From: Chrysochromulina tobinii
Taxonomy: Eukaryota
DNA: 35,151 bases
Direction of reading: 5' to 3'
Assembly (NCBI GenBank): GCA_001275005.1
Contig: JWZX01002534.1
Location: forward strand, 1-35,151
In this document: positions 5,121-30,866 of the stretch, in pieces
Numbering within the stretch: the stretch's first letter is position 1
Layout of the letters: each line of letters starts with the position of its first letter
The notes under the pieces: model-generated
Database searches by the model: none
Seen by the model: only the letters and a program-made list of their open reading frames with translations
Told to the model about the DNA's origin: nothing
Position numbers and translations under genes: made by a program

Positions 5121-5313
5121 GGCAACGAACACCAGGAACGCGGGTGGCCCGACAGACACCGACCCGACGCAGGTGCCCGTGAAAGAGAAGAACTTCGACT
5201 TGCCTAATTCGTCCAAGTCTCTCAGTTCTAGCGCTCACATATTTATATTTTTTCTTCAGAACTCGAAACTTTTCCTGATCACTGTTTTCATCTTCCATTT
5301 TCACACTTTGCGC
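5121..5313. promoter_or_regulatory. Short divergent intergenic region, probable bidirectional promoter
   Basis: 193 bp between head-to-head ATGs (5120 minus, 5314 plus), with an AT-rich core (atttatattttttttc near 5240-5256) in a GC-rich background. Confidence 0.45.
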
Positions 5314-11184: not shown

Positions 11185-11228
11185 GAGCATATAAACATGA
11201 AACTGTGCTCGCGAGGACGCGCATTTCG

Positions 11229-14200
11229 ATGGAGGCGTCGCCCTCCGAGCCGTCGCCGAGCTCGCCCGTCTTCGACGCGAGCGCGCCTGAGCCATCCAAG
11301 AAGAAAAAGTCGCGTGGCGCACGGCTTAGCAAGGCGGAGCGCGAGGCGAGGCGCGAGGCGCGAGAGGCGGCTGCCGTTGAGGATACGGCCGGGGCATCAG
11401 GAACGTTTGAGGTGCGGCGCAAGCGCCTGCAGCTGCTCGTGTCGCGCTCCGAGTGGGACGAGGCTGCAAGCCTGGGTGGCGAGTCGCTCCCTCTCGCGCG
11501 TGATCTTGTGCGAGCGCTCGTGAAGCTCAACCGTCACAAGCTGCTGACGCACTGTGCGGCACGGGCAGCACGCACTCTGCCCGTGGAGGCACTTGCTGAG
11601 CTTGTGCAAGAGGCACTTGACGAGGGCCGGCTGGCTGCGGCCGTGGCGCTCGCACGTGGTCTTGGCGTGCTCGAACGCTTCGCCTTTGCCGAGCACGCGC
11701 TCATCGCCTACGAAACGGGAGCGACGCAGGAGGCGGCGGACGCGCTGGGCAGCGAGCCGCAGCTGCAGCTGCGCACACTGCACGCGATGCTGGCGACATC
11801 GCGCTGCCTGCAGTTTGCGGTGCAGTACCTGCCCGCACTACGCCAGCTGCCCGCGCCCGATATGCCCACGCTCGAGCGCGTCGGAGAAGAGGCTCTCGCC
11901 GCCGCCGCCGCCGCCGCTGCCGCCTCGACGACTAGCGCCCAGGGCGGCGCCTCGGCCTCTTCCACAGCCTCGGCCTCTTCCACAGCCTCGGCCTCTTCCA
12001 CAGCCTCGGCCTCTTCCACAGCTCCGGCGGCGTCCATAGGCCTCGCCGCCGAGGTGCGTGCACGGCTCGAGGCGGCGCTGCGCGCGCGCTGGCCCGATTG
12101 CTCTGTGCATCTGTTTGGTTCGAGAGCCGTTGGCCTCGCGAGTGCGGCCTCGGACGTCGATGCATGCGTTCTGCTGCCCTCGATGCCCCTCGCGCACTGC
12201 CGCGACGCTGCGGGGCGCGCGCTCGTGCGCCCGCTGCTGCCGCTCGCCGCCGAGTGCGTGCGCGCATGCGCCGAGGTGAGCGGCCTGCATCTCGTGCCCA
12301 CCGGACGCACGCCGCTTCTCCGATTCGAGTTTGATGGCTCAACGGGCCTGTGCGCCTCGGTAGAGCTTTGTGTGAACAACACGGACGGCCTCGCCAACAG
12401 CGCCGTGATGCGCGAGCTGCTCGGCGCGGACACGGCGGGTACGTCGCAGCCGCTGCCCGCGCTGGCTGCCGCGGTCCGTCGATGGGCCCAGCAACGCCTC
12501 CTATGCAGCCTCCCTTCGACCCTCAACAGCTATGCGTGGACGCTCCTCGCTGCATCGACGCTCCAACAGCTGGGCGACTTGCCAGTGGTTGCGGGCTCGT
12601 CAGCTGAGTTTGCGGCACAGCTGTCGCCGCCCGCTCTGGCAGACGTGGCCATGGACGATGGAAGTGGGCACGCTGGCGCCGCTGGTGCACGCGAGGGAGC
12701 TGATGCGAACATCAACCACGCGAGCGACCGGGCGGACATGTACACGGCAAGGGAGCGTGCGTGGCGCGCGATGGCTGCGGCTTCTCTCGCTCCGAGTGGT
12801 GATGCGCCACGTGGCATGGCTGATACACTGCTCGACGGCATCCGCGCCGCATCCCTCGCAGGCACCTCGCCCTCTGCCGCCTCGTTGCCACCGGCACCGT
12901 CCATGCTTCCACAACCAAGTTTGGCAGCGCCACGGCCATCGGTGCCACTTCCGATTCCGCCGTCGCCGCCTCCGGCATCGACGCTGGCGGCTCCGGCGGC
13001 TTCGGCGTCGGCGCAGCGCGCGAGGGCCATCGGGTTATGGGTGTATCACTTCTTCCTGCTCTGGGGGTATGACTTTGCCTACCGACGACGCGTAGTCTCG
13101 CTGCGCCAGCCACACACGCTAACGAAGCTCGACAAGGCGGCGGCGGACGAGGCGTGGCCGCGCCGACGCGACGAGCAAGCACTGATGCTCGAGGACCCAA
13201 TTGAGACGCAGCGCGATCTCGGCCGTCTCGTAGGCAAGCACGCGCTCCAGGCTATCCGACTTGAGGCCGCCTGGGCGGCCATCCGTCTATCCGGGGGTGC
13301 CTCGCTCGAGCAGCTTTGTGAGCCGTTCGACTGGCGGTTACGCCCATACGCGAGCCTCCTCGGCCACGAGCGCCTCGCGCCATTGATGGCGCTGCGTGCG
13401 CTAGGCGGCGCGCCGCCTCTCTACGTGCACGATCAGCCCACCTGCGAGGCGATGCTCGTGTCCTTGCCGCGCGCACGCATTCTGGGGCTCGACTGCGAGG
13501 GTGAGCAGCTCTCACGGCATGGGCGGCTGTGCCTGCTCCAACTGAGTACCGACGCCGGCCAAATCTTCATCGTCGACATGCTTGCGCCGTGCGCCGCGCG
13601 GCTCGTCGATGCGCTCCGGCCGTTTCTCGAGTCCCCGCAGGTGCTCAAGGTGGCGCATGACTGCCGCAACGATGCCGACGCACTTTGGCACCAGCACCGT
13701 GTGCGCCTACGTCATGTCTTCGACACCCAAGCCGCCTACGCCGTCCTCAAGCGCAACCGCCGAGCAGGCGGCATCGGCGGCGGCATCGGCGGCGGCGAGG
13801 GCGTCGGCAGCAGCAGGAGCCTCGGTGGCGGCGACTCAAATTACGCTCCCAATCGGAGCCCCGAGTCGAGCGATTGTGTGTCTCTGGGTTCACTCGTGCG
13901 CCGGATGCTGGGGCACGCCGCCGCCGCCAAGGGCAACATTAGCGCGCAGATGAGCGAAGAGCCTAGCTTCTGGGCGCGTCGGCCGCTGCGCCCGTCGCAG
14001 CTACGCTACGCCGCCTCAGATGTGGCGCATCTGCTGCCGTTGCATGCGCGTCTACTGCTCGAGATGGACTTTGTGGCGGCCGGCGGCTGGCAGAAGCATC
14101 GAGTGGCATGCACAGCGACGGGAGCGGCGTCGGCGGAAGGGGCATTGATGATGTGTGCGTCTGCGTCGCGGGCGTCTGCGATTGGGGCGGATGAGGCCAT

Positions 14201-15440
14201 GGTGGCGGGGCCACCCTCGGCCGCCGAGGCGGCGGCCGCTGAGAGCGAGCGCCTTCGTGCAGCGGTGACAGTCCGGTCGGAAGCGTACCTGCGCGTGCGT
14301 GAGCAAACGTATGGCGTCGCGAGAGCCGAGGACATCCAGCTGCACGCCGTGCTCCCGGGGCTCGTGACCAATGTGTCGCGCTTTGGCCTCTTTGTGCAGG
14401 TGGCCGAGGGGGTGGTGGGGCTCGTTGGGATCCCAGAGCTCCTTGGTCCGTCGGTCGAGGAGGCAGCGGCGATGATGACGACTACGACGACTACAATGAG
14501 GGCCGATGTGAGCCCGCCGCCTCGGCTGCGTGCGCTCAGAACGGTGCTAGCGCCGTATGACGTGGCGCAGCCGGTGACCGTGCGTGTGATCAGTCTGCGC
14601 CACATGGGAGGACGGTTGCAGGTCGGGCTCTCGCTGCATCTCGCACGCCTCAACCCGACGCTTGAGAACCCCGAACAGCTGACACAGGGGCCGACGAGCG
14701 AGGACGGTGGCGGCGGCGGCAGCGGCGGCGGCAGCGGCGGCAGCGGCGGCGGTAGCAGCGGCGGTGGCAGTGGTGGCGGCGTCCCTGAGTGGTTCTGGGG
14801 GCGCGTGCTGCTCGTGGAGTCGCGCCGTGCGACCGTTGGCCTTGAGCTGACCCAACCTTTTGAGCTGCCCCTCGCTTTTGTAGTCGATGCGGCCACGGGC
14901 GAGCGCGCGGCCGGCACGGCGTCGGCTGCAGCGAGCGCGTCGGCCGGTCGCACGCCCGGCGGCCTGAGGCTTTGCGTGCAGGTCGGCCAGCTCCTTCGTG
15001 TGACGGTGGCGCGCCGTCTTCCCGGACGCGTCCAGCTTGGCACGCGGCTTGTGAGAGCAGTGGCCGTGCTGGAGGAGAGGACGGAAACGGCTGAGAAGGC
15101 GGCTCAACTCGGCCTGTCAACCGCGGGGTCGCTGTCGGCAGCACGGGTGTCGCGGGACCAACGCTCGCCAGCAGCAAATGCGGCTGAAGACGAGATGGAT
15201 GGCGATGATGAGGCGTGGAGCGCCGACGCTGCGATGGCGCGCATTGACGCGGGCGTCAAGCGCAGCTGGTTGGCGACGTGGGAGGAGGGCAGCGACGACG
15301 ACGACGACGACTTTGAGGGTGAGGGCGAGGACGAGGACGAGAGCGATTGCGAGGACGCTGACGAGGCAGAGGAGGAGGCTGATGGTCGCCGCAGCCGATC
15401 GAAGCGCAGGCGGTTGGTGGCGAGTAGCAGCGCTGTGTGA
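11229..15440 (+). CDS. Fusion protein: helical N-domain + URT1/Cid1-like terminal nucleotidyltransferase + DEDDy 3'-5' exonuclease (EXD1/Egalitarian-like) + S1 RNA-binding domain(s)
   Basis: Single 1403-aa ORF. NTase: LFGSRAVGLASAASDVDACV, VELCVNNTDGLANS, TLNSYAWTLL. PAP-associated/NRM: FFLLWGYDFAYRRRVVSLR...LMLEDPIETQRDLGR. Exonuclease: LGLDCEG, KVAHDCRNDA, VFDTQAA, WARRPL...RYAASDV. S1: GLVTNVSRFGLFVQVAEGVVGLV...VTVRVI. Acidic tail and basic NLS-like ends. Confidence 0.9.
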   Translation: MEASPSEPSPSSPVFDASAPEPSKKKKSRGARLSKAEREARREAREAAAVEDTAGASGTFEVRRKRLQLLVSRSEWDEAASLGGESLPLARDLVRALVKLNRHKLLTHCAARAARTLPVEALAELVQEALDEGRLAAAVALARGLGVLERFAFAEHALIAYETGATQEAADALGSEPQLQLRTLHAMLATSRCLQFAVQYLPALRQLPAPDMPTLERVGEEALAAAAAAAAASTTSAQGGASASSTASASSTASASSTASASSTAPAASIGLAAEVRARLEAALRARWPDCSVHLFGSRAVGLASAASDVDACVLLPSMPLAHCRDAAGRALVRPLLPLAAECVRACAEVSGLHLVPTGRTPLLRFEFDGSTGLCASVELCVNNTDGLANSAVMRELLGADTAGTSQPLPALAAAVRRWAQQRLLCSLPSTLNSYAWTLLAASTLQQLGDLPVVAGSSAEFAAQLSPPALADVAMDDGSGHAGAAGAREGADANINHASDRADMYTARERAWRAMAAASLAPSGDAPRGMADTLLDGIRAASLAGTSPSAASLPPAPSMLPQPSLAAPRPSVPLPIPPSPPPASTLAAPAASASAQRARAIGLWVYHFFLLWGYDFAYRRRVVSLRQPHTLTKLDKAAADEAWPRRRDEQALMLEDPIETQRDLGRLVGKHALQAIRLEAAWAAIRLSGGASLEQLCEPFDWRLRPYASLLGHERLAPLMALRALGGAPPLYVHDQPTCEAMLVSLPRARILGLDCEGEQLSRHGRLCLLQLSTDAGQIFIVDMLAPCAARLVDALRPFLESPQVLKVAHDCRNDADALWHQHRVRLRHVFDTQAAYAVLKRNRRAGGIGGGIGGGEGVGSSRSLGGGDSNYAPNRSPESSDCVSLGSLVRRMLGHAAAAKGNISAQMSEEPSFWARRPLRPSQLRYAASDVAHLLPLHARLLLEMDFVAAGGWQKHRVACTATGAASAEGALMMCASASRASAIGADEAMVAGPPSAAEAAAAESERLRAAVTVRSEAYLRVREQTYGVARAEDIQLHAVLPGLVTNVSRFGLFVQVAEGVVGLVGIPELLGPSVEEAAAMMTTTTTTMRADVSPPPRLRALRTVLAPYDVAQPVTVRVISLRHMGGRLQVGLSLHLARLNPTLENPEQLTQGPTSEDGGGGGSGGGSGGSGGGSSGGGSGGGVPEWFWGRVLLVESRRATVGLELTQPFELPLAFVVDAATGERAAGTASAAASASAGRTPGGLRLCVQVGQLLRVTVARRLPGRVQLGTRLVRAVAVLEERTETAEKAAQLGLSTAGSLSAARVSRDQRSPAANAAEDEMDGDDEAWSADAAMARIDAGVKRSWLATWEEGSDDDDDDFEGEGEDEDESDCEDADEAEEEADGRRSRSKRRRLVASSSAV
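11949..12020 (+). repeat. Coding minisatellite, 18 bp x4 (ASASST)4
   Basis: gcctcggcctcttccaca repeated four times perfectly, just after a (gcc)n poly-Ala run. Confidence 0.95.
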
Positions 15441-15984
15441 ACTGTGATCCTGTGAGTGTGCCCCTTCGGCTTCGCGTTTATTTTGCCACAACACAAGGAG
15501 ATTCGGTTTTTACCAAACACAAACAACCACCAGCGGCGCGGGGGCACCGCACCCATGGGTATGCGATGGACGCCCAGCTGGACAAAGTACGGGCGGGAAA
15601 TGGACGTCAGGACCACTCCACACCACGCAATACGACACACCACATCATTGCCGTGCACATTCCACCAGCTCAGAGCTCAACACCACCGCCATCGCCGCCC
15701 ACACCTCACACCTCGCTCACTTTGCTCACGAGAGTAAGCCCAAACACCAAGCACGAAAGAGACGATCGAACGAACAGTGCCAACTGGAATGGCCGTCACA
15801 GAGCCGACAGTGACCCTACGCTTAGAGATAGCCCACGGTCGTCCACGAGGCGGCATCGAGTGTAGCGCCTCTTGCAGCTGCGAAAGCGCTGGCGCACACT
15901 CGACGAGCACTCGTAGCGAACCGTGCTTGCCGATCCCCCAGCTCAGTAATCTGCCGTGTATGAGCTCTGTAGGCACGACCCCGA

Positions 15985-18900
15985 TCAGTTAGTGTTCAGC
16001 TGGGCATTGCTGAGGAAGTGCGAGCCGCCGTTGCACCGCCAGCCATCCCCCTCACGATGCCAGTCAAAGCCGGCGGGGCAGAGGCACATCTCCTTGATTT
16101 TCTCGCGCACGGCGGCATCGATGCGGTGCTGCTCCGTCTCCGCCTCCTTGATCGCCTCGCGCATCGACGAGAGCACCGCGCCCACCTGCGCACGTAGTTC
16201 GTCGATGATGTCGCGCGCGTCTCTGCCCGTCTTGCTGCAGACCAGGCCCAAGATATCTGGTGGGAAGTCCTTGGAGCCTTCGCAGCCGCTCAGCTTCGTC
16301 ACGAGCTCGCGGCGCTTTGCGTCCGACTCGTCATAGCCAAGCTCCACGCAGGCCTCCTGAAGCGCCGCCGCGACGTCGGGGCTGCAGTCGCCGCATGAGT
16401 CCTTGGCCTCGATTTCAATGATTCGGATCTCCTCGCGCTCCTCCTCCAGCTCACGCGCCGGCGGCCCACCCTCGCGCATAGGCGGCAGTAAGTCGTCGTA
16501 ATCCTCGGCGCCGCTGTTGATGGTGGTGCTCATGCTAGACCCCATCGAGAAGGCCTTCTCGAGATGCGGCGGCGACGGCCGATGTCTGTCGAACGAGTCC
16601 ATCGCGCTGCGCGCGTCTTCCACGGTGAACGAGGGCTGGCCCTCATCGACGCCTCGGACGGCCGCGGCCGCGAGCCTCTGCGCGCGCATACCCGCGAGCT
16701 CGTCGTACACCCACTCGGCGTCGCGGGCGTTGGCCCATCCCGGCCGCTTCTGGATGCGAGCCAGCCGCTCGCGCAGGACCGCCTGGGCGTCCTTGGAGAA
16801 TGCAAAGCCCTTCCGGTTGCAGCGCTCGAGTAGGTACGCGACGACGTCGTCGGCATCCCAGTCCGGCAGTGTGATCCGCTGCTTGAAGCGCGAGCGGAAG
16901 CCGGGATTGGCGCCGGCGAGCATCGCATCCATTTCCTTTTCGTAGCCGGCGAGCACCACGATGCTCTTGCCCTTGTATTGAGGCGCGGAGAGATTGAATG
17001 TGAGCTGATCGACGGCCTCTTTGGCGTACAGCCCGCCGCGCATGCCGCCGCCGCCGAGGTTGTATGCTTCGTCGATGAATACGAGGCCGCCGGGTGCCGA
17101 CGCCATGAGCTCATCCACCTTCGTCTTCGTGTGACCGAGGTACTCGCCCTGCAAGTTGAGTGCCGACTGCTCAGCGAAGCCGTCGCCAACGAGCACGCCC
17201 TTTGCGCGCAGCCACTTGCCAAGCACGCGCGCAAAGGTAGTCTTGCCCGTGCCCGGGTTGCCGACGAAGACGTAGTTGCCCACTTTGTCGGCAGGCATCG
17301 AAGGGTCGAGCTCGCCGTCCGTCTGCAGCTGCGCGAGCCGCGCAGCGAGTGCGTCGAAGTGCGCCCTGAGGCCGTCGGCCTTGAAGAGAGTCGCCATCTC
17401 TTCCTCCACCTCGTGCAGCAGAGAGGCCGTCTTGGCCGTGCCGCCGCTCGCGCCCTCGTGGAGCCCGAGGTCAGCGAGAGTGATGCTGCGGGCGTCGCCC
17501 CGCCCCGCGAGGGACTCCTTGACACGGCCCATGAGCGAGTTGACGGCGCCCGCGTTGCCAAAGTGCGGCTTGATGCGCTCCCGGATGAGCAGATTGAGCG
17601 CCGCCTTGCAAACGGAGCGTTTGGCCCAGCGCAGGCCGGCGGCAGTGGCGGCGAGGTGCAATAGCTCCTCGAGCTGCGAGTCGGTGAAGTAGGCAAAATG
17701 GAAGGCCGACTCAGGCGAGAAGCGGCGCATGAGCCCCGGATTGACCTCGCGGAGCATCTTCATCATCTCGTCCTCGTACCCGAGCAGCAACACAGCGATG
17801 TCCTCGCCCGGCGAGTTGTGAACCTTGGAGACGATCGTGTCGATGGCCCGCGCACCGTAGAGGCCTTCATGCAGCCCGTAGGCCTCGTCGATCACGAGCA
17901 CCTTGCCTTTGCAGATCTCGAGCAGTGCCGCTGTCTTCTCCTCGGTGCCCCCCGCCGCCGACGCAATCAAGTCCGACGGGGTGCGCACCTCAACCGAGCC
18001 GTCGCTCAAGTAGCCAAGGCCCTTAAGGATGCGCCCGTACACCTTGGCGATCGTCGTCTTGCCGGTGCCAGGGTTGCCGAGGAAGAGCCGATTGAGGGGC
18101 ACGAGGTGCGGGGGCTCGCAATTGAGCTCGCGCTGGTAGTTGATCTGCGCGAGCTTGATCAGTGTTCGCGCCTGCTCCTTGACCGCCTCGAGCCCGACCT
18201 GCCGATCGAGCTCGGCGAGAGCAGCCTTCAGATCGGGCACATGCTCGACCTCTGGCGGCGGGCCGAGCACGTCGACCACCCTCATGAGGAGCTGCTCCGG
18301 GTCGTACTTGGATGGCGCGCGCGTCGGCATGAGCGTGTTATCGTCGCCAATCGCCGTACTAGTCGCGCCATGCGCGCTGGCCTTGCGAAAGGCCACCAGG
18401 GTCACCTTCGACCGTGCGCCCGAAAGGTGCTTCGCCAACCAAGTCTTGACGACCCCAGGCATCGGTGCGCTCGAGGGCACCTTCGCTGCGAGTGCCTCGG
18501 CAATTTCAAGCACGCTCATGCCCGCGGTGATGCCCTGGCTCTTGTACCAACTGCCCGAGCCTGTACCCTCGAGCCTGTAGTAGCCACCGGAATCGTCTAG
18601 ATCGGGAGGCTTGTCGCTCGCTTGAGCATAAATCGAGTGCGTGGCAGCCTGCCCGCCGGACGCATCGAGTGCGAGCTGTAGCTGGGCCCCGTCGCTGCCG
18701 TGAAATGCTTTGAAAAGCTTCTCTGGCCAGTCCGACGACGCTTTGCTGGTTGAGCCTGGAGGCTTGAGCGCACCCAAGACCTCCTTGCCATCGAGCGTGA
18801 GCTGCCCGTCCACGATGCGGATTATGTCGCCAGTCGCCAGCCGGCCGTCTTTCGCAGCGGGCGAGCCTGCCTTGAGAGAGGACACACAGAGGCCGCCGCC

Positions 18901-21900
18901 GCCAATCATGGCGTCCACCGCCTTTCCCTGTATGCCATACGAGCCGTCAGCAGCGGCGTGCAGCTCGATCTCGAGCTTCGTCACGCCTGGCCGCACGAAC
19001 AGGTCCTTGGAGTCGAGCAGGTAGACAGGGCCAGTTCGGCCGCCCAGCTGAACGTGCACGGCGGCGGCATCACTGACGTTGAGCACGAGACCCTCGAGGC
19101 GGCCGTCAGCCGCATGGCCGGCTGCATTTTGCTTTCCGTTCGCCTCAGGAGCGAGGGTCTGCTCGATGTTTTCGACGTAATCGGCCGAAGTGTACCAGGT
19201 ACGCCCGCCAAAGTTGACCTGCAGGTCGTCGCTCACGCACACGACAGTGCCCTCCATGCCGACGACGTCGATGTCCACCCCCTGGCTCTCAATCCCTGGC
19301 AGTGCGCGCACGCGGTCGCCCTCCTTTGGCTTCGCTGGAACTTTTGGCGTCTCCTGAGGGTCCTTCGCGTCCGCCTTGGAGTGCATGACCTCCATCTCAG
19401 AAGACTTGCAATTCCATCCTGTAGTGGTGCCTGCGAAGTCAACCTTGAGGTCGCCGTCGGAGTCGATTCTAGTGACGACCCCAACCATGCCATGCTTGAC
19501 ACTGCCCCAGCCGTATGCTGGCCTAGACACGCTCTGCTTGACGCTTACCCGTGCGCCCACGCACAGCTTGCCGCCCGGCGCCATCGTGGGCGTCGTGGGG
19601 CACACTGCGTGTTCAGGTTTGGCGCAGCACGTGGTGCACAGCCCGCAGTGTTCACAGCCACCCGGGCCCGTCTGCGACGACGGGCCGTGCATCCCGCACT
19701 TGTGGCAGCGCACCGAGCCGCTCCAAGCCTTTTGCGTGTGCACTGCCCGCTGCGGCCGCGGCAGGATACTCTCATGGCCCGGCACGAGTGCCGGATCGAG
19801 GAGCACGGGGCAGCCCACACAGAGCTCACAGAGCTTGAGCGGCTGCGCACCCTCAACCGAGGCGGCAGGCACCTCAGGCGGCTCTACGGGGCCATGTCCC
19901 TTGCGCCGACCTTTTGCGCTCATCTTGGTCCCCTTGGTCGCCTTGGTCGCCTTGGTCGCCTTGGTCACATTGGGCGGCGGCGGCTGCGGCGGCGGCGGCG
20001 GCGGCGGCGGCAGCGTCTGGCTTGTGGCGAGCTCATGGACGCGCTTAGCAGCCTGACGATCCTTCTCGATGCGACCGAGAGCGCGTGGGTACACCTCCTC
20101 GAAAAGGTTCCGCACGTCGCGCGCGTTGGCAAAGCCTTTGACGCCGCGGCGACGGGCGATGCGGCGCGACGCAACCTCCGCAACGTGCGGCTCGAGCCGC
20201 CACGAGTGCTTCTGCGCGATCTCGAGCCAGATCTCCTTGAGCTCGGGCTGTGTGAAGTCCTCAAAGATCAGGTCGCGGAAGCGGCTCTTCATGCCCGGGT
20301 TGAAGCTGTACAGCTTTTCCTCGATGTCGTCCTTGTAGCCCGCGAAGAAGATGGAGAGCCGGTCGCGCTGGTCCTCGGCGGCCGTCATGAGCAGGTTGAT
20401 GATGGCCTTGCCCGCCGAGTTGGACCCCGGATCGAGAGAGTAAGCCTCATCGATGAAGAGAATGCCATCTTTCGCCTTGTCGATTAGGTCAGGCACATCG
20501 GCCGGCTTCATCTGGAGCAGCTTCTCACCGGTCGTCTCGATGAACGCTGTGCCCGTGCGCAGGCCAAGCTCGTGGAGCAGCTTGCCGAGCAGCCGCGCCA
20601 CGGTCGTCTTGCCCGTGCCCGGGTTGCCCATTAGCGAAAAGTTGAGCGATGTAACGACGCGCATCGACTCGGGCAGCCGCCTTTCGGCAAGCACCCGAGT
20701 TTGCAACTGGTACGCTACCGCCTTGACCTGGTGCAGCCCCCGGAGCGCCATCAGCTCGTCGAGGGCTTTTGATTCGGAATCACCGGCCTTCGTCTTCGCC
20801 ACTGACGCCTTGTGGCTGGTACCTTTCTGCTGCTCGTCTTTTGACGCGTGGCGGGAGGGCACAAGTACCAGCGGCGGCGCATCCGGAGGCGTTGGTACTG
20901 CGGTGATCTCTAAGATGCGCTTGTTCGTGTCCGTGATGAGCAGGTGCAGCTCAGCCTCAGTCAAGAAGCTTTCCCCGTGTTCCACGAAGGCTGACTTGAC
21001 GCCGGTCATCGGCGCGTCCAGCCGCTCGGCGTACAGCGCAAGGCACGAGTACAAATGCGCTTGGCCTGGCCGGAAGTCACTAGCCTTGTACACGCCGCCG
21101 TGATCGAGGCGCGCGAGCACCAGCAGAAGGAGCGGATCGAGCATCCTGTCAGTCACCATCGCCCCATCCGCGACGTAGCCATCAAGGATCTCGCTGGCTT
21201 CGGTGCGATAGGGACTGGCCTCGTCCGATGCGAGCGCAAGTGCGTACAGCAGATCGACCGCCGACGCCGCTGCCTGCATCGCCACCACGGAGCCACGGAT
21301 CATCTCGCGCGCCTCGTCGAGAGCGTCCGCCGCCGTCTCCCACGCACCTGCATGCAATGCAGCCAAAGCGCTCTCGACCTTGCGCCGCACCTCAGCGGGG
21401 AGCCTCGAAACGTCGGGCACGAATGGGGGGCGCTGTGGGGATGCAAGTCCGAGAAGGAGCTTGTCGACGGCTGCGCCATTCATCTTCAGACGCGTCGCAA
21501 GGTAGCATCGCGCCGCACGCACGCGGTGCGCGCGTACTAAAAGCGCTGCTGCGTCATGCGCTTGCGGCTCGTCGGCAGCACCCAGCTCAGCAGCGTTCGC
21601 GAGGGCACCACCGAGCGCAAAAACGGCCATGTCATCGTCAGACTGGGCGGCAACCACTAGGTGAGAGACATGGAGCCACGCCTGTTTGCGGCGAAGCTCG
21701 GTCAGTTGGGGCTGTGCCTCTTGCAAGAGGGCCCAAGAGCGCTCGTGTACCTTGCGCTTGCGCAGCCGCCGTAGTAGTAGAAAGAAGCGCACTGCCGCGT
21801 GCATCATGTGGCACGCTGCCCGAGCACTCCGTGAGCGGCGCAGCCGCCACCGACGCGTCGTGGACGTGATGTGGCGCGCGGCCCCCAAGTAGGCAGGTGG

Positions 21901-24858
21901 GAGGAGGGCTGACGTGTGGCAGAGCATGCCAAGTGCAGGCAGCGATGGATGCTTGACGTACGCAACGCCCGAGGTGGCATCTGCCGCGAGCACCTCGACG
22001 CATGCATCAAGGAAGCGCAGCGAAGGAGTCTTGCGCGCAGCACGCTGCAAACGCGTCTCGTGGGTCTCAAGGCCGCCGTAGAGCTCGATCCCGCTGCACC
22101 CCAAGCTATTGGACACAGTGCCGTCGGCTTTGGGCTCGCCCGATGGAGGGCCGGTCTGCAGAAGGCGGAAGTGGCGGAAAGCCTGGCCATTGAAGAGGGC
22201 GGCATCGAGGCTCCATTTCGCGAGCGAGTGAGGATTCTCAGCAAGTGTAGTGTCGTTGGCGTGCTTTCGCAGCGTCACCCACGTCGTGCCTTCGACGGAT
22301 CCTTGCAGCTGCCAGTGGCGCAGCTTGCCCTTCGCTTGCTTCGTCGAACGCACCGCGTACGCCTCGGGGTAGAGCATTCGTCCCTCACCGAGATCGATCG
22401 AGATCCACGAGCCCACACGATTGTCGGTCGAGCAATCCTCGAGCTTCCCGTTGCCGTTGTGCTGCACGAGGGCTAGAGGTTTGCCCTCGCCCACCGATGA
22501 CCGGCGCGCTGTCACGTCGCCGGCCTCCTGTGGGTTTTGGTAAGCACGCGTGCCACCCCGAGTGCCGAGGTAGTGGAGCACGCCGGGGTAGAGGCCTGGC
22601 CCTGCCTCTGGCGTGGCCTGAGCCTGTCTCCCGGCCTCTATCCCTGCTGCTGGCGTGGGTGCCACGTAGGCTCCGTATGGCTCCACGTCCGCCAGCTGCG
22701 CCACTGCCGCCCACGCTCGGCAGAGCTCATGCCGCTTGAGAAGTGCACGTCCGGAGGCGAGCATTGGGTCCGGAAGCACCAAGACCGCGCTGCTCACCTC
22801 GAGCGGCGCACCCAGCGCGCCCATCGTGCCTCGCGGCAAACGGTTGCCTTGCGCCGCATCGCCAAAGAGCGCCAGAAGTGCGAGCGCCGCACCAGCTGTC
22901 GCGTCGATGGGCGCCCCCGTCAGGTTCGCAACTCGAGCTGTCCGCTCAGAGGGTAGTAATTCGGGGCACTCTGCCATCGAGAGCTCGGCTTTGGTTGCAT
23001 GGGGATTGTCGGTTGAATTGTTATTGCCGACGCCGTGCTCGTCATCAGGTGGCGTCCACGCGATGCAGCGCAGCTCCGGCTGCTCAATCCATTTCGCGCC
23101 AAAACCGGCGTTTGCTCTCCACGTTACGCTGCTAGCGTCAGGGAACGATGCATCTTTATCGGGGAGGTGCAGATTGCCCTTGTCCTCACCAAGTGATTTC
23201 TCAGGCTGTGCTAACCAAGATGACTTCGGATTGAACGCAATCCAGAGAGTCTTATCACTCGTGTGCTGAAAGGCGGGTCGGCCGTTCACAAGCTTGCTGT
23301 CATCGCGCCGGTAGGTACCGAGGTACCTGGCCGCTTGCTCAGGCAGCGAGCTGCACTCCACTTTCAGCCCAGGAGGTGGTGAACCAGAGCCCGCACCACT
23401 CTCGTCAGCGTACTCGTACTCAAGATCGAACTTCTGGCTCGCGCCGACTCGATAGGAATTCTTGCGGCCGCTGCCATCCCACTTGACCTTGATCCAGCCC
23501 ACGGTGTCATCGCTGAAAGTCGTGCCCATTTGCTGTTCGCCTTCGTGGTGATCCTGCTCGCCCCAGCTCCAATCGGGTCCTCGTCGCACCCGCACGCCCT
23601 CCTTCTTCTCCTTCAGCGTGCTCCACCACTTCTCCGTCGTGGAGCACGGCTTGCTTGCTGCCTTGGATTTCAGTTCCTTTTGTTTTTGGAGCTCCCCCAC
23701 CTTGAACCACCACTGTTCGCCGTCACTGAACTTCACCTTGAAAGGGCGACTTGAGTTGTCATCCTCAATCAGCCTGCCTGTCTTGCCAACGGTCGGCTTC
23801 GTCGCCGAGTCGGATGCGCTGAGCACCAGCACCGTGTCGCCCACCTGCAGTCGCGCCCCTGCGCCGCCCTCGTCGACCTCCTCCGTCGTCTCCTGAGACT
23901 CCACCTCGGCCTCAGAATTCTCCTCAGCCTCAGACTTCTCCTTTGCCTCTGACTTCTCCTTCGCCTCTGACTTTTCCGCAGGCAGCTTGCGCGACGGCAC
24001 GGGATGTGGTGGGTAGTGACCAAAGCAGATGTCGGCCGCGGCTGCGTGCTCCGCCTTAGATCCGGCAGCGTGGCCGCGCTTCCACCACCTCATCCACTCT
24101 TGAGCGTCACCTGCGAGAACATCGCCTGCTGCCGCCGAGCCCGGCCCATTTGCGCTCTCGGCGGCGCCAGCCATTGCCAGGGTGGCCAGGTGCTCGAGGA
24201 GCCCCTCACGCGTGCCCGGGCACAGCAGGTCGAGGTCGAGCAGCAGATGCGCATGCTCGGCTCCGAGCACGTGCGCCATGCGTGCAACGCAGACGATGCG
24301 AGCGGCGGCCGTGTCGCGCCCCCGAAGGAGGTTGACGTCGAGCACTCCCTCGATCCACGTGGCCCATGCCGCCTGCCGATCGGCGAGTGCAGCATTTACT
24401 TTGGATGCGAAGGCCAGGGCCGTGCTGTAATTGAGCTCGACGCCGTTGGAGCTCGTGCGCTTGAAATCAGCCATGATTGCATGGATGGATGCAGTGTGCT
24501 CCTCGAAGGGCGTGAGAATGATCGTCTTGGGGGAGCATCCCTGAGTTCTCGCCGGTGAGGCGGGCGAGGAAGGCTTAAGCTCCAGCTCGGTTGCAGTGCC
24601 ACCACAATGGTCGTGATCGAGCGCGTCGTGATACTCGCTTCCGCCGCTGCTGCTGCTGGTTGTGCGCTCTGGGCTCACGGTGGTCGCAGTTTGTTCATTG
24701 CCCGTGCCTTCATCCCGGAGCTTCTTGTCCTTGTTCTCATCTTTCGCGGTGGTGTCTGCGGTCTCCTTATCCGCCATCGCCATTTCGTCGCTGAGCTGCT
24801 CTGAGAGTGTGCGTGCGAGGAAAAGGGGCGTAGCGGCGGCCATATCAAGCTCGGTCAT
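15985..24858 (-). CDS. Giant (~2957 aa) protein with three CbbX/SpoVK-type AAA+ modules plus MIB/HERC2, SH3-like, HECTD1-like SUN/discoidin, Cys-rich and PDZ domains
   Basis: Uninterrupted ORF; first ATG at 24858. Three GNPGTGKT Walker A motifs (~20605-20628, 18055-18078, 17239-17262), each followed by hhhDEAY Walker B and an NPGxxxRF Arg-finger box. MIB/HERC2 GVRVRRGPDWSWGEQD...KWD...NSYRVG at ~23420-23600. GVLHYLGT...WISIDLG...LRHWQLQGS...GIELYG at ~22070-22590. PDZ at ~18770-18985. C-terminal CPAGFDW...WRCNGGSH. Confidence 0.92.
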   Translation of the reverse strand: MTELDMAAATPLFLARTLSEQLSDEMAMADKETADTTAKDENKDKKLRDEGTGNEQTATTVSPERTTSSSSGGSEYHDALDHDHCGGTATELELKPSSPASPARTQGCSPKTIILTPFEEHTASIHAIMADFKRTSSNGVELNYSTALAFASKVNAALADRQAAWATWIEGVLDVNLLRGRDTAAARIVCVARMAHVLGAEHAHLLLDLDLLCPGTREGLLEHLATLAMAGAAESANGPGSAAAGDVLAGDAQEWMRWWKRGHAAGSKAEHAAAADICFGHYPPHPVPSRKLPAEKSEAKEKSEAKEKSEAEENSEAEVESQETTEEVDEGGAGARLQVGDTVLVLSASDSATKPTVGKTGRLIEDDNSSRPFKVKFSDGEQWWFKVGELQKQKELKSKAASKPCSTTEKWWSTLKEKKEGVRVRRGPDWSWGEQDHHEGEQQMGTTFSDDTVGWIKVKWDGSGRKNSYRVGASQKFDLEYEYADESGAGSGSPPPGLKVECSSLPEQAARYLGTYRRDDSKLVNGRPAFQHTSDKTLWIAFNPKSSWLAQPEKSLGEDKGNLHLPDKDASFPDASSVTWRANAGFGAKWIEQPELRCIAWTPPDDEHGVGNNNSTDNPHATKAELSMAECPELLPSERTARVANLTGAPIDATAGAALALLALFGDAAQGNRLPRGTMGALGAPLEVSSAVLVLPDPMLASGRALLKRHELCRAWAAVAQLADVEPYGAYVAPTPAAGIEAGRQAQATPEAGPGLYPGVLHYLGTRGGTRAYQNPQEAGDVTARRSSVGEGKPLALVQHNGNGKLEDCSTDNRVGSWISIDLGEGRMLYPEAYAVRSTKQAKGKLRHWQLQGSVEGTTWVTLRKHANDTTLAENPHSLAKWSLDAALFNGQAFRHFRLLQTGPPSGEPKADGTVSNSLGCSGIELYGGLETHETRLQRAARKTPSLRFLDACVEVLAADATSGVAYVKHPSLPALGMLCHTSALLPPAYLGAARHITSTTRRWRLRRSRSARAACHMMHAAVRFFLLLRRLRKRKVHERSWALLQEAQPQLTELRRKQAWLHVSHLVVAAQSDDDMAVFALGGALANAAELGAADEPQAHDAAALLVRAHRVRAARCYLATRLKMNGAAVDKLLLGLASPQRPPFVPDVSRLPAEVRRKVESALAALHAGAWETAADALDEAREMIRGSVVAMQAAASAVDLLYALALASDEASPYRTEASEILDGYVADGAMVTDRMLDPLLLLVLARLDHGGVYKASDFRPGQAHLYSCLALYAERLDAPMTGVKSAFVEHGESFLTEAELHLLITDTNKRILEITAVPTPPDAPPLVLVPSRHASKDEQQKGTSHKASVAKTKAGDSESKALDELMALRGLHQVKAVAYQLQTRVLAERRLPESMRVVTSLNFSLMGNPGTGKTTVARLLGKLLHELGLRTGTAFIETTGEKLLQMKPADVPDLIDKAKDGILFIDEAYSLDPGSNSAGKAIINLLMTAAEDQRDRLSIFFAGYKDDIEEKLYSFNPGMKSRFRDLIFEDFTQPELKEIWLEIAQKHSWRLEPHVAEVASRRIARRRGVKGFANARDVRNLFEEVYPRALGRIEKDRQAAKRVHELATSQTLPPPPPPPPQPPPPNVTKATKATKATKGTKMSAKGRRKGHGPVEPPEVPAASVEGAQPLKLCELCVGCPVLLDPALVPGHESILPRPQRAVHTQKAWSGSVRCHKCGMHGPSSQTGPGGCEHCGLCTTCCAKPEHAVCPTTPTMAPGGKLCVGARVSVKQSVSRPAYGWGSVKHGMVGVVTRIDSDGDLKVDFAGTTTGWNCKSSEMEVMHSKADAKDPQETPKVPAKPKEGDRVRALPGIESQGVDIDVVGMEGTVVCVSDDLQVNFGGRTWYTSADYVENIEQTLAPEANGKQNAAGHAADGRLEGLVLNVSDAAAVHVQLGGRTGPVYLLDSKDLFVRPGVTKLEIELHAAADGSYGIQGKAVDAMIGGGGLCVSSLKAGSPAAKDGRLATGDIIRIVDGQLTLDGKEVLGALKPPGSTSKASSDWPEKLFKAFHGSDGAQLQLALDASGGQAATHSIYAQASDKPPDLDDSGGYYRLEGTGSGSWYKSQGITAGMSVLEIAEALAAKVPSSAPMPGVVKTWLAKHLSGARSKVTLVAFRKASAHGATSTAIGDDNTLMPTRAPSKYDPEQLLMRVVDVLGPPPEVEHVPDLKAALAELDRQVGLEAVKEQARTLIKLAQINYQRELNCEPPHLVPLNRLFLGNPGTGKTTIAKVYGRILKGLGYLSDGSVEVRTPSDLIASAAGGTEEKTAALLEICKGKVLVIDEAYGLHEGLYGARAIDTIVSKVHNSPGEDIAVLLLGYEDEMMKMLREVNPGLMRRFSPESAFHFAYFTDSQLEELLHLAATAAGLRWAKRSVCKAALNLLIRERIKPHFGNAGAVNSLMGRVKESLAGRGDARSITLADLGLHEGASGGTAKTASLLHEVEEEMATLFKADGLRAHFDALAARLAQLQTDGELDPSMPADKVGNYVFVGNPGTGKTTFARVLGKWLRAKGVLVGDGFAEQSALNLQGEYLGHTKTKVDELMASAPGGLVFIDEAYNLGGGGMRGGLYAKEAVDQLTFNLSAPQYKGKSIVVLAGYEKEMDAMLAGANPGFRSRFKQRITLPDWDADDVVAYLLERCNRKGFAFSKDAQAVLRERLARIQKRPGWANARDAEWVYDELAGMRAQRLAAAAVRGVDEGQPSFTVEDARSAMDSFDRHRPSPPHLEKAFSMGSSMSTTINSGAEDYDDLLPPMREGGPPARELEEEREEIRIIEIEAKDSCGDCSPDVAAALQEACVELGYDESDAKRRELVTKLSGCEGSKDFPPDILGLVCSKTGRDARDIIDELRAQVGAVLSSMREAIKEAETEQHRIDAAVREKIKEMCLCPAGFDWHREGDGWRCNGGSHFLSNAQLNTN

Positions 24859-25145
24859 CTTAGCGAGCGCGCGCGCAAGAGTCTTCGGAACCACAAGCTC
24901 GGTTTTTTCAACTCGGCCTCACCCCCCTTGGTTTTTTCCAGGACCCACGCGAATCAGATCGCGCGGGGCTCGAGAATTCAGTTGACCCCCCCCCGCACAC
25001 CCAACCTCTTTCAACAGGTCTCATAGCCTCGACGCTTCGTCTTCGTCAAAAAGTTGGAAGCCACTCCACCCTGAACGGCGTACTGCTGCACGTGCACAGT
25101 ACACACAAACGAAACCGAGCTTCTGGAGAACAGCCCGACGTCCTC

Positions 25146-26762
25146 TCACAACGGGATGTTGCCGTGCTTTCGCCAGGCGCGCTCCTGCCGCTTGTCGCTG
25201 AGCAGCTCCAAGCTCTCCCAGACGAGCTGGCGCGTCTCGCGAGGCGCGATGACCGCATCGATGAAGCCGCGCTGCGCGGCCACGAGCGGGTTGGCAAACT
25301 TAGTCTCATACGTAGCCGTGTTCTCGTCGACGTTCTTGCCACGGAAGATGATTTCGACGGCGCCTTTGGCGCCCATGACGGCGATTTCGGCGGAGGGCCA
25401 CGCGACGTTCACATCGCCGCGAAGGTGCTTGGACGCCATGACGTCGTACGCGCCGCCGTACGCCTTGCGCGTGATCACAGTGACCTTCGGCACGGTCGCT
25501 TCCGCGTAGGCGTACAGCAATTTCGCGCCGTGCCGGATGACACCACCGTGCTCCTGGCCGGTGCCGGGCAGGAAGCCGGGTACGTCTACGAAGGTGAGAA
25601 GGGGGATGCCGTACGCGTCGCACGTGCGCACAAAGCGCGCCGCCTTGACCGCCGCGTTGATGTCGAGGCAGCCCGCGAGCTCTTGCGGCTGGTTGGCTAC
25701 GATACCGACCGTTCGGCCGCCTACCCGGCCAAAGCCAGTGAGGATGTTCTTGGCGTAGTCGGGCTGGAGCTCGAAGAAGGAGCGCTCATCGAGCACGCGG
25801 CGCACGAGCGCGCCCATGTCGTACGGCACGTTCGGGTCTGCGGGCACGATGCGATCGAGAGCCTCGTCGGCGCGGCTGATCGGATCCTCCGTGGGCAAGA
25901 CGGGCACCGGTTGGCGGTTGGAGGAGGGCAGGTACGACATGAGCTGACGTGTTGTGGCCATCGCGGCGACGTCGTTCGGGCACGCGAGGTGCGCCACGCC
26001 CGACGTGCGCGTGTGTGTACGCGCGCCGCCCAGCGCCTCCGCCGACACCTCCTCGTTGGTGACGGTCTTGACAACGTCTGGGCCGGTGACGAACATGTAG
26101 CTCGTGTGCTCGACCATCACAGTGAAGTCGGTCAAGGCGGGCGAGTAGACGGCGCCGCCCGCGCACGGGCCCATGATGATCGACAGCTGCGGCACCACGC
26201 CCGAAGCGTCCACGTTACGCTGGAACACCTCGGCATACCCAGCGAGGGAGCCCACTCCTTCCTGGATCCGAGCGCCGCCAGAATCGTTGAGGCCGATGAC
26301 GGGCGCGCCGACGGCGAGTGCCTTATCCATGATCTTGCAAATCTTCTCAGCATGTGCCTCGCCGAGGCTGCCCCCGAAGACGGTGAAGTCCTGCGAGAAG
26401 ACGAAGACCGTCCGCCCATGGATCTTGCCGTGGCCGGTCACCACGCCGTCGCCCGGAGGCCGATTGCTTCCCATATCAAAGTCTTCGCAACGGTGGGTCT
26501 TGAGCTTGTCGTATTCGCGGAAAGTTCCCTCGTCGAGCAGCAGCGTCAGCCGCTCCCGCGCCGTCAGCTTGCCCTTGCGGTGCTGCGCCTCAATCCGGGC
26601 CTCACCGCCGCCAAGCTTCGCCGCCACCTCCGCTTCCTCGAGCCGTGCCCGCACTGAGGCCGCCTTGGCAAGCGTCTTGGGTGGAGGGGGCAACGAGCAG
26701 AGGCTGCGCGGCAGCAGCGCGTGGCGTGCGAGCCTGGGACGATCGATGACGAGACGTAGCAT
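25146..26762 (-). CDS. PCCB: Propionyl-CoA carboxylase beta chain (carboxyltransferase), mitochondrial
   Basis: [77 protein letters not shown] and terminal WRKHGNIPL. Arg-rich presequence from ATG 26762. Confidence 0.96.
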
Positions 26763-26893
26763 CGATCGGCGTCCGCAGAGGGCTTGCGGCTCGGCCGCGG
26801 TTGCGTCAATTTTCATCGATAGTTCCGATTTCACAACGACTAAGTTTTTCGTGTGCGTGCACATGCGACACTGAGTGTACCTCATGCATCTTC

Positions 26894-27571
26894 TCATGTG
26901 TCCAGCTCCGCAAAGGCGGCAGCATGGGCGAGGCCTTCTCCGAACATATCGGTCTCCTCATCGGGCGCGTGTACGATGACCGCGAGCCGCTGTCGGAGCG
27001 CCGCCTCTGTGAGCATGCCCGGAGGTGGCGGCTTGCCTAGCCGCAGGTCGCGAGCGGCACGTTCCTCATCTGTGAACGCACGGAACGGTGGTCCCGCCGC
27101 TCGATTGCGATCGAGCTTGGGCGGCTCTTTGCGGCATGCCGTGGACCATTCCTTGCAAGCGTCGGCGCGCAGTTGCGAGAGGCTCGCTCCAGAGTACAGG
27201 GCCTCACTCAGCTCGTTATCCCAGCCCTCGTCGAGCAGTGCAGCGCATGCGAGCTTGATGGTCGCACACTCGCGGCCGCATGGCCCATCCTCTTTATGCC
27301 GCTCAAGCTCAAGCCGGTCACCACTCTCGACCAGATCAATCGAACGCATCCAACCACCCGCTGAGGATTCGGGGTTTTGCACATCCTCGAGCGCGCTGAG
27401 GATGGACGCCTCCTCTTTACGCAGCCCAGGATTGCGCTCGAGATGGCCGTGCAGCTCACCGATCAGCAATTCGCAAACGCCGCAGCGAATGTACTTCACG
27501 TCCCCTTGGATGCCCTGTGACGACGCCAGGCTCGTCTGGAGCACAATGATCATGCACAACGTGCGGCGCAT
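26894..27571 (-). CDS. Secreted/ER saposin-B-type (canopy-like) protein
   Basis: Signal peptide [20 protein letters not shown], then [38 protein letters not shown] and C-x6-C, the pattern of plant/algal saposin-like proteins. Confidence 0.8.
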
Positions 27572-30356: not shown

Positions 30357-30866
30357 ATGTTGGCTTCCACTGCAGCTTCCACGACGTTTGAGGCCCTAAG
30401 CGTAAACGAGTTCTTCGACGCGTGCCCGAACAGCATGAGCACCACGGACACGCGCACTGTCAGTGAAATCTCAGACTACCTTGTGCAAAAGTGCACGTTG
30501 GAGCATGCGACCCAGATACTCTTGGTGCTTGACCTGAACAAGGACGGGATCATCGGCCGCAACGAGTTTGTCAAAGGCCACAAGGCGGGCACCTTGGCCG
30601 TCATAAAGAAAATAGAGAGAATGGCTTCAGGCAGCCTTGAGGCACTTGTGGCGCTCACTCGCAACGGCGATGCTGAAGATAAGACGAGCGCAGCGGGCGC
30701 GTTGTCGATTCTGGCGCGAGACAGTGCTGCCAACAAGGCGGCGATCGTGGCGGCGGGCGGCATTGAGGCGCTTGTAGCGCTCACCCGCGATGGCGACGCT
30801 ACATGCAAGGCGGCCGCAGCTGGCGCGTTGGCAACTCTTTTGTCTGGTGCTGAGGCGATTGCATAA
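30357..30866 (+). CDS. EF-hand plus two Armadillo repeats protein
   Basis: EF loop DLNKDGIIGRNE. ARM repeats GSLEALVALTRNGDAEDKTSAAGALSILA and NKAAIVAAGGIEALVALTRDGDATCKAAAAGALATL. Confidence 0.8.
   Translation: MLASTAASTTFEALSVNEFFDACPNSMSTTDTRTVSEISDYLVQKCTLEHATQILLVLDLNKDGIIGRNEFVKGHKAGTLAVIKKIERMASGSLEALVALTRNGDAEDKTSAAGALSILARDSAANKAAIVAAGGIEALVALTRDGDATCKAAAAGALATLLSGAEAIA

What the first reader, a model, noticed from the sequence alone, without database searches (positions are those of the whole stretch)
15985..24858. Giant triple-AAA+ (CbbX-type) protein carrying E3-ligase-type recognition modules instead of a helicase
Seen: an 8.9-kb ORF with three complete AAA+ modules, all retaining Walker A Lys, Walker B DE and the Arg finger. 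It also has SH3-like, MIB/HERC2, HECTD1-like SUN/discoidin, IQ-like, helical, Cys-rich, KEG/Mind-bomb-type SH3 and PDZ segments. Recalled from family knowledge: tandem CbbX AAA modules with this kind of C-terminal Cys motif occur in fungal/protist proteins usually joined to a ZNFX1-like SF1 helicase and NFX1 fingers. MIB/HERC2 and KEG repeats are typical of ubiquitin ligases. No helicase, RING or HECT domain is visible here. Inference: a modular sensor-ATPase with a swappable recognition region, conceptually like the RNF213/ZNFX1 immune ATPases, and not a Rubisco activase.
Basis: partly seen in the sequence, partly recalled or inferred. Interest (0 to 1): 0.8.

Follow-up and report, generated by a model that had tools for sequence, protein, structure and literature searches.

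The report
Domain-swapping triple ATPase motor cassette
A real, intron-free gene, likely from a haptophyte alga, encodes a 2957-residue protein with three CbbX-like ATP motors and an undescribed C-terminal finger, decorated with binding modules that come and go between close relatives; it is predicted to be a target-remodelling machine, possibly for defence, because the same motor cassette is also fused to relatives of the animal immune proteins ZNFX1 and RNF213.

Summary
One minus-strand ORF (24858-15985, 2957 aa) carries three AAA+ modules plus MIB/HERC2, discoidin, Mind-bomb SH3 and PDZ domains, and no helicase, RING, HECT or RZ domain was found. An 8469-nt contig from an RNA library crosses most of it without a gap. 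The modules belong to the SpoVK/CbbX/EccA clade, in a widespread eukaryotic cassette: helical arm, three to five AAA+ tiers, helical bundle, Cys-Cys-His finger. Only tier 3 keeps the aromatic pore loop (98 of 101 relatives); tier 2 lacks sensor-2. Most listed relatives carry a ZNFX1-like helicase (88 of 120), but this gene's sister clade is fused to RNF213-like proteins. Swapping is shown: a 93%-identical relative gains 225 and loses 96 residues of whole modules, and others put TLDc or thioredoxin into the motor region. This protein's 581-residue insert between tiers 1 and 2 was the longest among 254 examined. The modules are general binding domains, not ligase-specific. Best reading: a stacked-ring remodeller with exchangeable targeting modules; a defence role is inferred from fusion partners only. 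The clade and its helicase form are in print; I found no description of the tandem cassette or this subfamily.

The parts
15985..24858 (-). Whole ORF, 2957 aa (P0001), no intron seen
   Evidence: RNA-library contig of 8469 nt over 16397-24864 without gap
15487..24888 (-). Extent covered by RNA-library contigs (likely transcript with about 500 nt of 3' UTR); strand inferred from the ORF
   Evidence: table 8
23869..24858 (-). N-terminal region 1-330, no known family; residues 142-261 resemble paralog P0411
23674..23856 (-). SH3-like segment 335-395 (by eye, not confirmed by a library)
   Evidence: sequence; searches gave no relevant hit
23416..23598 (-). MIB/HERC2 domain 421-481
   Evidence: Pfam PF06701 E 1e-13; HECTD1 3dkm E 7e-10
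23044..23373 (-). Mobile beta module 496-605 of unnamed type; residues 514-609 are absent in P0383/P0385, and a related module lies between AAA1 and AAA2 of P0135
22075..22584 (-). Discoidin (F5/8-type) domain, about 759-928
   Evidence: PF00754 E 1.8e-5, below cut-off; 34% to discoidins of P0412
21724..21846 (-). Degenerate IQ-like basic helix, about 1005-1045 (by eye; clearer IQ-like repeats at this position in P0004, P0036, P0135)
   Evidence: sequence
20869..21468 (-). Helical arm 1131-1330, part of the family core
   Evidence: iterated profile finds 77 of 150 upstream regions, 45 of them helicase-bearing; 0 reversed controls
19996..20805 (-). AAA+ tier 1 (1352-1621): Walker A/B, GY, Arg finger, sensor-2 present; pore loop deleted
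18256..19995 (-). 581-aa insert between tiers 1 and 2
19600..19830 (-). Cys-rich segment 1677-1753 (11 Cys), no family match
19393..19560 (-). Mind-bomb SH3 repeat 1767-1822
   Evidence: PF18346 E 1e-7; HERC2 9l8y E 9e-6
18979..19332 (-). Further SH3-like segments, about 1843-1960 (by eye); shared with P0410 and in part P0411
   Evidence: (no PDB hit)
18754..18969 (-). PDZ domain, about 1964-2035
   Evidence: PF17820 E 1.5e-6, PF00595 E 3.6e-5
18454..18708 (-). Unnamed module 2051-2135, found twice in the N-terminal head of P0036
   Evidence: blastp E 1.6e-16 and 7e-11; no Atlas hit
17449..18255 (-). AAA+ tier 2 (2202-2470): sensor-2 Arg replaced by Gly2437, no aromatic pore residue
16564..17448 (-). 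AAA+ tier 3 (2471-2765): all motifs, CbbX-like pore loop with Tyr2573
15988..16383 (-). C-terminal domain 2826-2957: three-helix bundle, 44-residue helix, three-stranded finger
   Evidence: AlphaFold model mean pLDDT 89.6; no clear fold match
16018..16080 (-). Finger with Cys2927, Cys2942, His2947; metal binding is inferred

Best explanation
The gene encodes one helicase-free member of a eukaryotic tandem SpoVK/CbbX/EccA-type AAA+ family, predicted to work as a stacked-ring protein remodeller whose exchangeable binding modules likely choose its target, most likely in defence or stress signalling. Shown: one ORF, three ATPase tiers with unequal motifs, a conserved helical arm and C-terminal finger, and gain and loss of whole modules among close relatives. 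Inferred: six copies assemble so that each tier forms its own ring; tier 3, the only one with an aromatic pore loop, pulls on the substrate; tiers 1 and 2 act as nucleotide-controlled scaffold; modules in the head and in the tier 1-2 insert project outward and dock the ring on a target; the IQ-like helix may add calcium control; the finger is an output or partner-binding site. The defence context is inferred only from the company the cassette keeps (ZNFX1-like and RNF213-like heads, LRR/ankyrin/WD40 heads) and from the fast shuffling.
For: Modules group by position with the eukaryotic tandem family, apart from CbbX, SpoVK and EccA. In 101 three-module proteins with the finger: pore loop absent in tier 1 (101 of 101), aromatic in tier 2 in 18 of 101 and in tier 3 in 98 of 101; sensor-2 Arg in 91, 4 and 96 of 101. 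Eukaryotic relatives have 3, 4 or 5 modules, the extras grouping with tier 3, which fits stacked tiers better than one six-membered ring. The tier 2-3 model superposes over both tiers of Rix7 (441 residues, rmsd 7.6), NVL (468, 8.4) and Cdc48 (454, 9.0). P0383 is 93% identical over 595-2957 but has 225 extra residues and lacks 96; P0410, P0036, P0135, P0126 carry other modules at the same or neighbouring junctions. ZNFX1-like head: P0089, E 1e-84 to ZNFX1. RNF213-like head: P0016, E 4e-54; sister to this clade with SH-aLRT 99.6. PMC11513918 (passages) describes the clade as narrow-target chaperones with variable recruiting N-termini.
Against: No experiment on any eukaryotic member was found. 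The rmsd of 7.6-9 A to stacked AAA+ proteins is loose, the model covers only tiers 2-3, and chains over 3000 residues were not compared. No data on induction by infection; the gene is present in 14 listed RNA runs of mixed cultures, which fits constitutive expression equally well. Retained modules are as conserved as the linker regions (85-98% against 97.6-98.5% in the core), with no test for positive selection. No genome was available, so paralog number is unknown. PADLOC gives only P-loop matches. Relatives come mostly from unnamed metagenome gene calls that can be cut at introns or mis-assembled.
Confidence: 0.5

Rival explanations
1. It is a dedicated cellular chaperone, like CbbX, SpoVK or EccA, that assembles or activates one host complex (for example cytoskeletal or membrane-bound, under calcium control), with no link to defence.
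For: All characterised clade members are narrow chaperones (PMC11513918, passages). The gene is found in 14 RNA runs without known infection. IQ-like helix, PDZ and SH3 modules are ordinary scaffolding parts.
Against: A fixed client does not call for whole-module turnover at 93% identity or several divergent paralog types; sister and cousin clades are fused to RNF213-like and ZNFX1-like heads.
Confidence: 0.25
2. The motor core works alone and the extra domains are tolerated passengers of the domain shuffling common in this lineage.
For: P0394, a close paralog (SH-aLRT 100), has no insert and a short unrelated head; the same discoidin occurs in an unrelated channel protein; the modules differ freely among relatives.
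Against: About 1700 residues of accessory sequence stay in frame and 85-98% identical between P0001 and P0383, and the SH3-PDZ block is kept in P0410 at about 51% identity.
Confidence: 0.15
3. The C-terminal finger is a catalytic Cys/His unit analogous to the RZ finger, and the protein is a non-canonical ubiquitin ligase.
For: The finger ends the cassette that sits where animal ZNFX1 has its Miz/RZ ligase part (10.1101/2025.10.14.682297, passages). First Cys to His is 20 residues here, against 21 between the RZ nucleophile and base (C1860, H1881) in that paper.
Against: Only three conserved candidate ligands, not the four-Cys two-His set of RZ; no Pfam or PDB match; no RZ pattern in 409 fetched proteins; many relatives have a different three-Cys finger at this place.
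Confidence: 0.07
4. It is a Rubisco activase or a fused CbbX.
For: CbbX is the best solved match of each module (E 1e-26; Z 25) and tier 3 has a CbbX-like pore loop.
Against: Below the CbbX cut-off; modules do not group with three bacterial CbbX proteins; the family is present in fungi, oomycetes and animals; no plastid leader is evident at the N-terminus (by eye).
Confidence: 0.02

Closest known systems
SpoVK/CbbX/EccA clade of classical AAA+ ATPases (PMC11513918; CbbX 3SYL/3ZUH, EccA1 9LUR)
   Same: Module fold, GY signature, Asn before the Arg finger, AAA_lid_6 lid, variable recruiting N-terminus; the paper mentions eukaryotic members with an SF1 helicase and a zinc-binding label.
   Different: Three tandem, specialised tiers instead of one; 581-aa insert between tiers; helicase-free shuffled head; C-terminal bundle and finger. 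The word 'tandem' does not occur in the paper's main text; its Figure 3A could not be seen.
Fungal/oomycete/chytrid 'NFX1-type zinc finger protein 1'-annotated helicase plus tandem AAA proteins
   Same: Same helical arm, three tiers in the same order, same C-terminal finger.
   Different: No helicase or NFX1 fingers here; tiers are contiguous there.
RNF213 (mysterin) and ZNFX1
   Same: Relatives of both are fused to the cassette found here; RNF213 pairs a variable N-terminal binding module with ATP-driven assembly (PMC11549300, passages).
   Different: This protein has no dynein-like ring, helicase, RING, Miz or RZ domain; its AAA modules are of another clade.
Type II stacked AAA+ remodellers (Cdc48/p97, Rix7/NVL, ClpA/C)
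   Same: Predicted stacked arrangement of consecutive modules; unequal tiers.
   Different: Three tiers, 15-18% identity, loose superposition; an analogy of architecture, not membership.

Membership tests
SpoVK/CbbX/EccA clade | GY signature in the sensor-1 region | tested here: met
   AGY 1506, LGY 2359, AGY 2637
SpoVK/CbbX/EccA clade | Conserved Asn upstream of the first Arg finger | tested here: met
   N1520, N2373, N2651; six residues before the invariant Arg by my count, the paper says four, not reconciled
SpoVK/CbbX/EccA clade | Sensor-2 arginine | tested here: inconclusive
   Present in tiers 1 and 3 (R1580, R2712), Gly in tier 2 as in most relatives
SpoVK/CbbX/EccA clade | Closest profile and fold match within the clade | tested here: met
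CbbX (Rubisco activase) | TIGR02880 score above cut-off | tested here: not met
   328.6 bits summed over three modules against 459.25
CbbX (Rubisco activase) | Groups with CbbX in a tree | tested here: not met
   (752 modules, three bacterial CbbX; no plastid or algal nuclear CbbX included)
CbbX (Rubisco activase) | RuBP-activated remodelling of Rubisco | not testable with these tools
   needs an assay
Eukaryotic tandem AAA plus finger cassette | Helical arm, position-specific tiers 1-2-3, C-terminal Cys-Cys-His finger | tested here: met
ZNFX1-like helicases | SF1 helicase domain | tested here: not met
   family helicase profile, six frames of the window, no hit; no AAA_11/AAA_12 among the 25 of 37 Pfam rows shown
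RNF213 family | Dynein-like AAA ring | tested here: not met
   no RNF213 chain among 12 PDB matches; P0001 not found by the RNF213-like parts of P0016
RZ-finger E3 ligases | Four conserved Cys and two His | tested here: not met
   three conserved candidates only; definition from PMC11549300 passage
RING/HECT E3 ligases | RING or HECT catalytic domain | tested here: not met
   no RING pattern; no Pfam hit in seven non-AAA segments at E<=10
Type II stacked AAA+ remodellers | Stacked homo-hexameric rings | tested here: inconclusive
   loose two-tier superposition of a monomer model; oligomer not modelled

The most novel reading that the evidence does not exclude
The helical arm + tandem AAA+ + finger cassette is an undescribed effector module of innate immunity in protists, fungi and some invertebrates: it occupies the output end of ZNFX1-like and RNF213-like sensors in place of the ubiquitin-ligase part known from animals, and in haptophytes it has become a free platform whose specificity is rewritten by inserting and deleting binding domains, even inside the motor.
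Probability: 0.3. Interest if true: 0.85.

Novelty: new variant of a known kind. Interest (0 to 1): 0.58.

Why it matters
If right, two animal immune sensors have microbial-eukaryote relatives that signal through a multi-tier ATP motor instead of ubiquitin, and an algal lineage diversifies that motor by domain exchange. That gives a concrete, testable candidate for how algae and fungi detect or dismantle invaders. Independently of function, a three- to five-tier AAA+ stack with one predicted working pore and a tolerated 581-residue insert, plus a finger with no known fold match, is structurally unexplored; fungal members in laboratory species make it testable.

Tried and rejected
No genome is held for the window, so no paralog census. 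Viral contigs: 2 pattern matches, no relative. Phage collection: 11 records, single weak modules at 31-39%. Metagenome contig scan used generic patterns, read 2 of 64 parts and gave no relative above 45%; its loci were not analysed further. ESM Atlas gave no usable hit for the C-terminal domain or the 2040-2160 module. Fold searches of the C-terminal model: no Foldseek match at E<=0.001 in PDB or viral libraries, best VIA Z 6.5 on helices only, finger barely tested; this does not show a new fold. PDB 'Cake' hits to the SH3-like segment are summed repeats of non-significant matches. I guessed CVNH, SPRY and primase-like labels for heads of P0314, P0410, P0411 by eye; Pfam did not return them. 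The hole at 20.6-23.2 kb in run X14 and the joints (short sides, or letters between not known) were not taken as splicing; the 23045-23385 joint reads GT..AG on the wrong strand. Single-AAA proteins P0255-P0293 and P0260 look like gene calls cut at introns or contig ends and were not read as a split system. P0384 joins a P0383-like front to a P0410-like tier-2 start (97.7% over 88 aa) with no insert: real recombinant or assembly chimera, undecided, not counted as proof. The 15 helicase/no-helicase changes on the tree are inflated by truncated proteins. The IQ-TREE bootstrap run timed out; supports come from the fast run. Of 23 hand-picked variant positions, 12 were synonymous; the list is biased and no selection claim is made. 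Complex prediction was not used, since ring contacts would pass by likeness to solved hexamers. Literature searches with no relevant description; one search found the clade paper.

Full report
Observation. The window holds a minus-strand ORF from 24858 to 15985, 2957 residues from the first ATG, in a gene-dense, GC-rich eukaryotic region. The nearest named relatives are haptophyte proteins (Chrysochromulina tobinii P0260, 53% over residues 1153-1606), so a haptophyte origin is inferred; no genome is held. Pfam confirms MIB_HERC2, a Mind-bomb SH3 repeat and PDZ above cut-off and a discoidin below cut-off. The other SH3-like, IQ-like and Cys-rich segments are seen by eye only. A profile made from 18 family helicases finds nothing in six frames of the window, and no RING pattern is present.

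One gene. Fourteen listed RNA runs hold 97-98% of the sampled words. I laid four of them. In X5 one contig of 8469 nt covers 16397-24864 without a gap and an overlapping contig runs on past the stop; in X1 two contigs break only at the poly-proline repeat; X14 has a hole at 20.6-23.2 kb. Listed contigs stop near 24890 and 15490. No credible intron joint appears. Contigs cannot prove a single molecule and RNA libraries can contain DNA, but low cover on the flanks favours RNA. An independent full-length metagenome protein, P0383 (3063 aa), has the same continuous frame.

The motor. All three modules have Walker A Lys, Walker B DE, the GY signature and the Arg finger, the marks of the SpoVK/CbbX/EccA clade in PMC11513918 (passages read; its one supplement gave no hit; figures not visible). 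They score below the CbbX, SpoVK and EccA cut-offs. In a tree of 752 modules each one groups with the same-position module of a eukaryotic tandem family, apart from bacterial CbbX, SpoVK and EccA. The tiers are unequal. Among 101 three-module proteins ending in the finger, tier 1 lacks the pore loop in all, tier 2 has an aromatic pore residue in 18 and a sensor-2 Arg in 4, tier 3 has them in 98 and 96 (Walker A and B were used to extract modules, so their conservation there is by construction). P0001 follows this pattern. Relatives have three, four or five modules, extras grouping with tier 3. An AlphaFold model of tiers 2-3 and the tail (pLDDT 88.6) superposes loosely on both tiers of Rix7, NVL and Cdc48 (441-468 residues, rmsd 7.6-9.0). 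Together these favour stacked rings with tier 3 as the threading ring; this is inference.

The cassette and its heads. A helical arm upstream of tier 1 is shared with 77 of 150 upstream regions, 45 of them helicase-bearing, and no reversed control. The tail is a helical bundle, a long helix and a three-stranded finger with Cys2927, Cys2942 and His2947; 219 of 409 fetched proteins match it, and no library names it. Of the 120 best listed long relatives 88 carry a helicase, ZNFX1-like in the one tested. Of 149 proteins with finger, three or more modules and a head of 400 residues or more, 109 have a helicase, 9 an RNF213-like part and 31 something else, some of them fragments; ankyrin, LRR, GTPase-vWA heads were confirmed in examples, and WD40 in a member without the finger match. 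On concatenated tiers, P0001's clade is sister to the RNF213-like clade (FastTree 0.991 with 156 sequences; SH-aLRT 99.6 with 54 chosen sequences); P0016 matches RNF213 at E 4e-54, and three other members share its ATPase part while the rest were assigned by a more C-terminal segment. In animals the C-terminal end of ZNFX1 carries the Miz and RZ ligase units (10.1101/2025.10.14.682297, passages); no RZ pattern occurs in the 409 proteins. So the cassette stands at the output end of both sensor types.

Swapping. P0383 is 93% identical over residues 595-2957 yet has 225 extra residues, two beta modules, before MIB/HERC2 and lacks residues 514-609; P0385 shares the loss. The lost module resembles one placed between tiers 1 and 2 of P0135 (E 1e-8). 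P0036 puts TLDc there and carries two copies of P0001's 2051-2135 module in its head. P0410 (61%) has another head, a C1 finger within its discoidin region and an insert without the Cys-rich and Mind-bomb parts. P0126 has thioredoxin after tier 3. P0394 has no insert. Among the 254 proteins, P0001's 581-residue gap is the longest within a cassette (next 293, 183, 120; the larger or similar gaps in P0002 and P0024 separate groups of modules). Core identity to P0383 is 97.6-98.5%, modules 85-98%. These relatives are metagenome gene calls, so assembly error is possible for any single one, not for all.

What the modules are not. They are named after ligases but bind peptides or glycans in many contexts (general knowledge); the discoidin's best non-family match is an ankyrin ion-channel protein. 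No ligase domain is present.

Mechanism and rivals. Best (0.5): a stacked-ring remodeller aimed by exchangeable modules, probably in defence or stress signalling; the remodeller part is likelier (about 0.7) than the defence part (about 0.4). Rivals: dedicated cellular chaperone (0.25), passenger domains (0.15), cryptic ligase finger (0.07), Rubisco activase (0.02). Against the best reading: no functional data, no induction data, no selection test, ordinary neighbours, only P-loop matches in PADLOC.

Novelty. The clade, its variable N-termini and a eukaryotic helicase form are in print. Searches found no description of the tandem cassette, the RNF213-like fusion or this subfamily; the library lacks most subscription papers, and apart from the four papers read in passages I saw listings only. 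Earlier notes of this scan report the same family in other genomes; they are leads, not independent support. Verdict: new variant of a known kind, interest 0.58.

Noticed in passing
window 11205-15440 (+): Convergent neighbour fuses a Cid1/TUTase-type nucleotidyltransferase, a 3'-5' exonuclease and a weak S1 domain in one 1400-aa ORF: an RNA tailing and trimming enzyme; RNA cover is low.
   Followed up: partly
window 25146-26897 (-), 7460-9982 (-), 6151-7221 (+), 5071-5955 (+), 30357-30866 (+), 31261-31977 (-): Ordinary neighbours: carboxyl transferase, NCA2, TauD dioxygenase, FSH1 hydrolase, armadillo protein, weak MsrA-like protein. No defence cluster is evident.
   Followed up: partly
P0145, P0154, P0244: Tandem modules of this clade (4-5) end in a trypsin-like peptidase (PF13365, E 7e-21 to 8e-24), although the preprint 10.1101/2023.10.06.561273 (passage) found no peptidase association in the clade.
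   Followed up: partly
P0049, P0055, P0070, P0007: The helicase plus tandem AAA form is annotated in animals: Hydra, Clytia and the beetle Zophobas.
   Followed up: no
P0234: A 1054-aa protein made of 16 matches to the C-terminal finger with no ATPase: the finger is an independent module.
   Followed up: no
P0002: Haematococcus protein with two complete triple-AAA cassettes flanking a helicase.
   Followed up: no
P0002, P0031, P0069, P0113, P0151, P0161, P0242, P0250, P0273 and others: A second C-terminal finger type (CxxC plus a later Cys) replaces the Cys-Cys-His finger after the same long helix; 9 changes of type on the 156-taxon tree. Both types show three candidate ligands.
   Followed up: partly
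P0394, P0314, P0321, P0325, P0332: Close paralog lineage whose tier 1 has lost the GY signature and Arg finger and which starts with a hydrophobic leader (by eye).
   Followed up: no
P0410, P0411, P0204: P0410 has a C1 zinc finger inserted within its discoidin region; P0411 has a weak histone-fold match (E 0.095); P0204 joins a URGCP-like GTPase and vWA to the cassette.
   Followed up: partly
window 16942 and 18069, loose contig ends: Read by eye as CbbX-like motifs, so probably transcripts of a true CbbX in the same cultures.
   Followed up: no
window 23628: All seven laid runs that cover the place read T for the window's A (Trp411 to Arg); possible error or private allele in the window.
   Followed up: partly
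P0125 and other bacterial-type proteins: Up to eight tandem modules of this clade in one chain.
   Followed up: no
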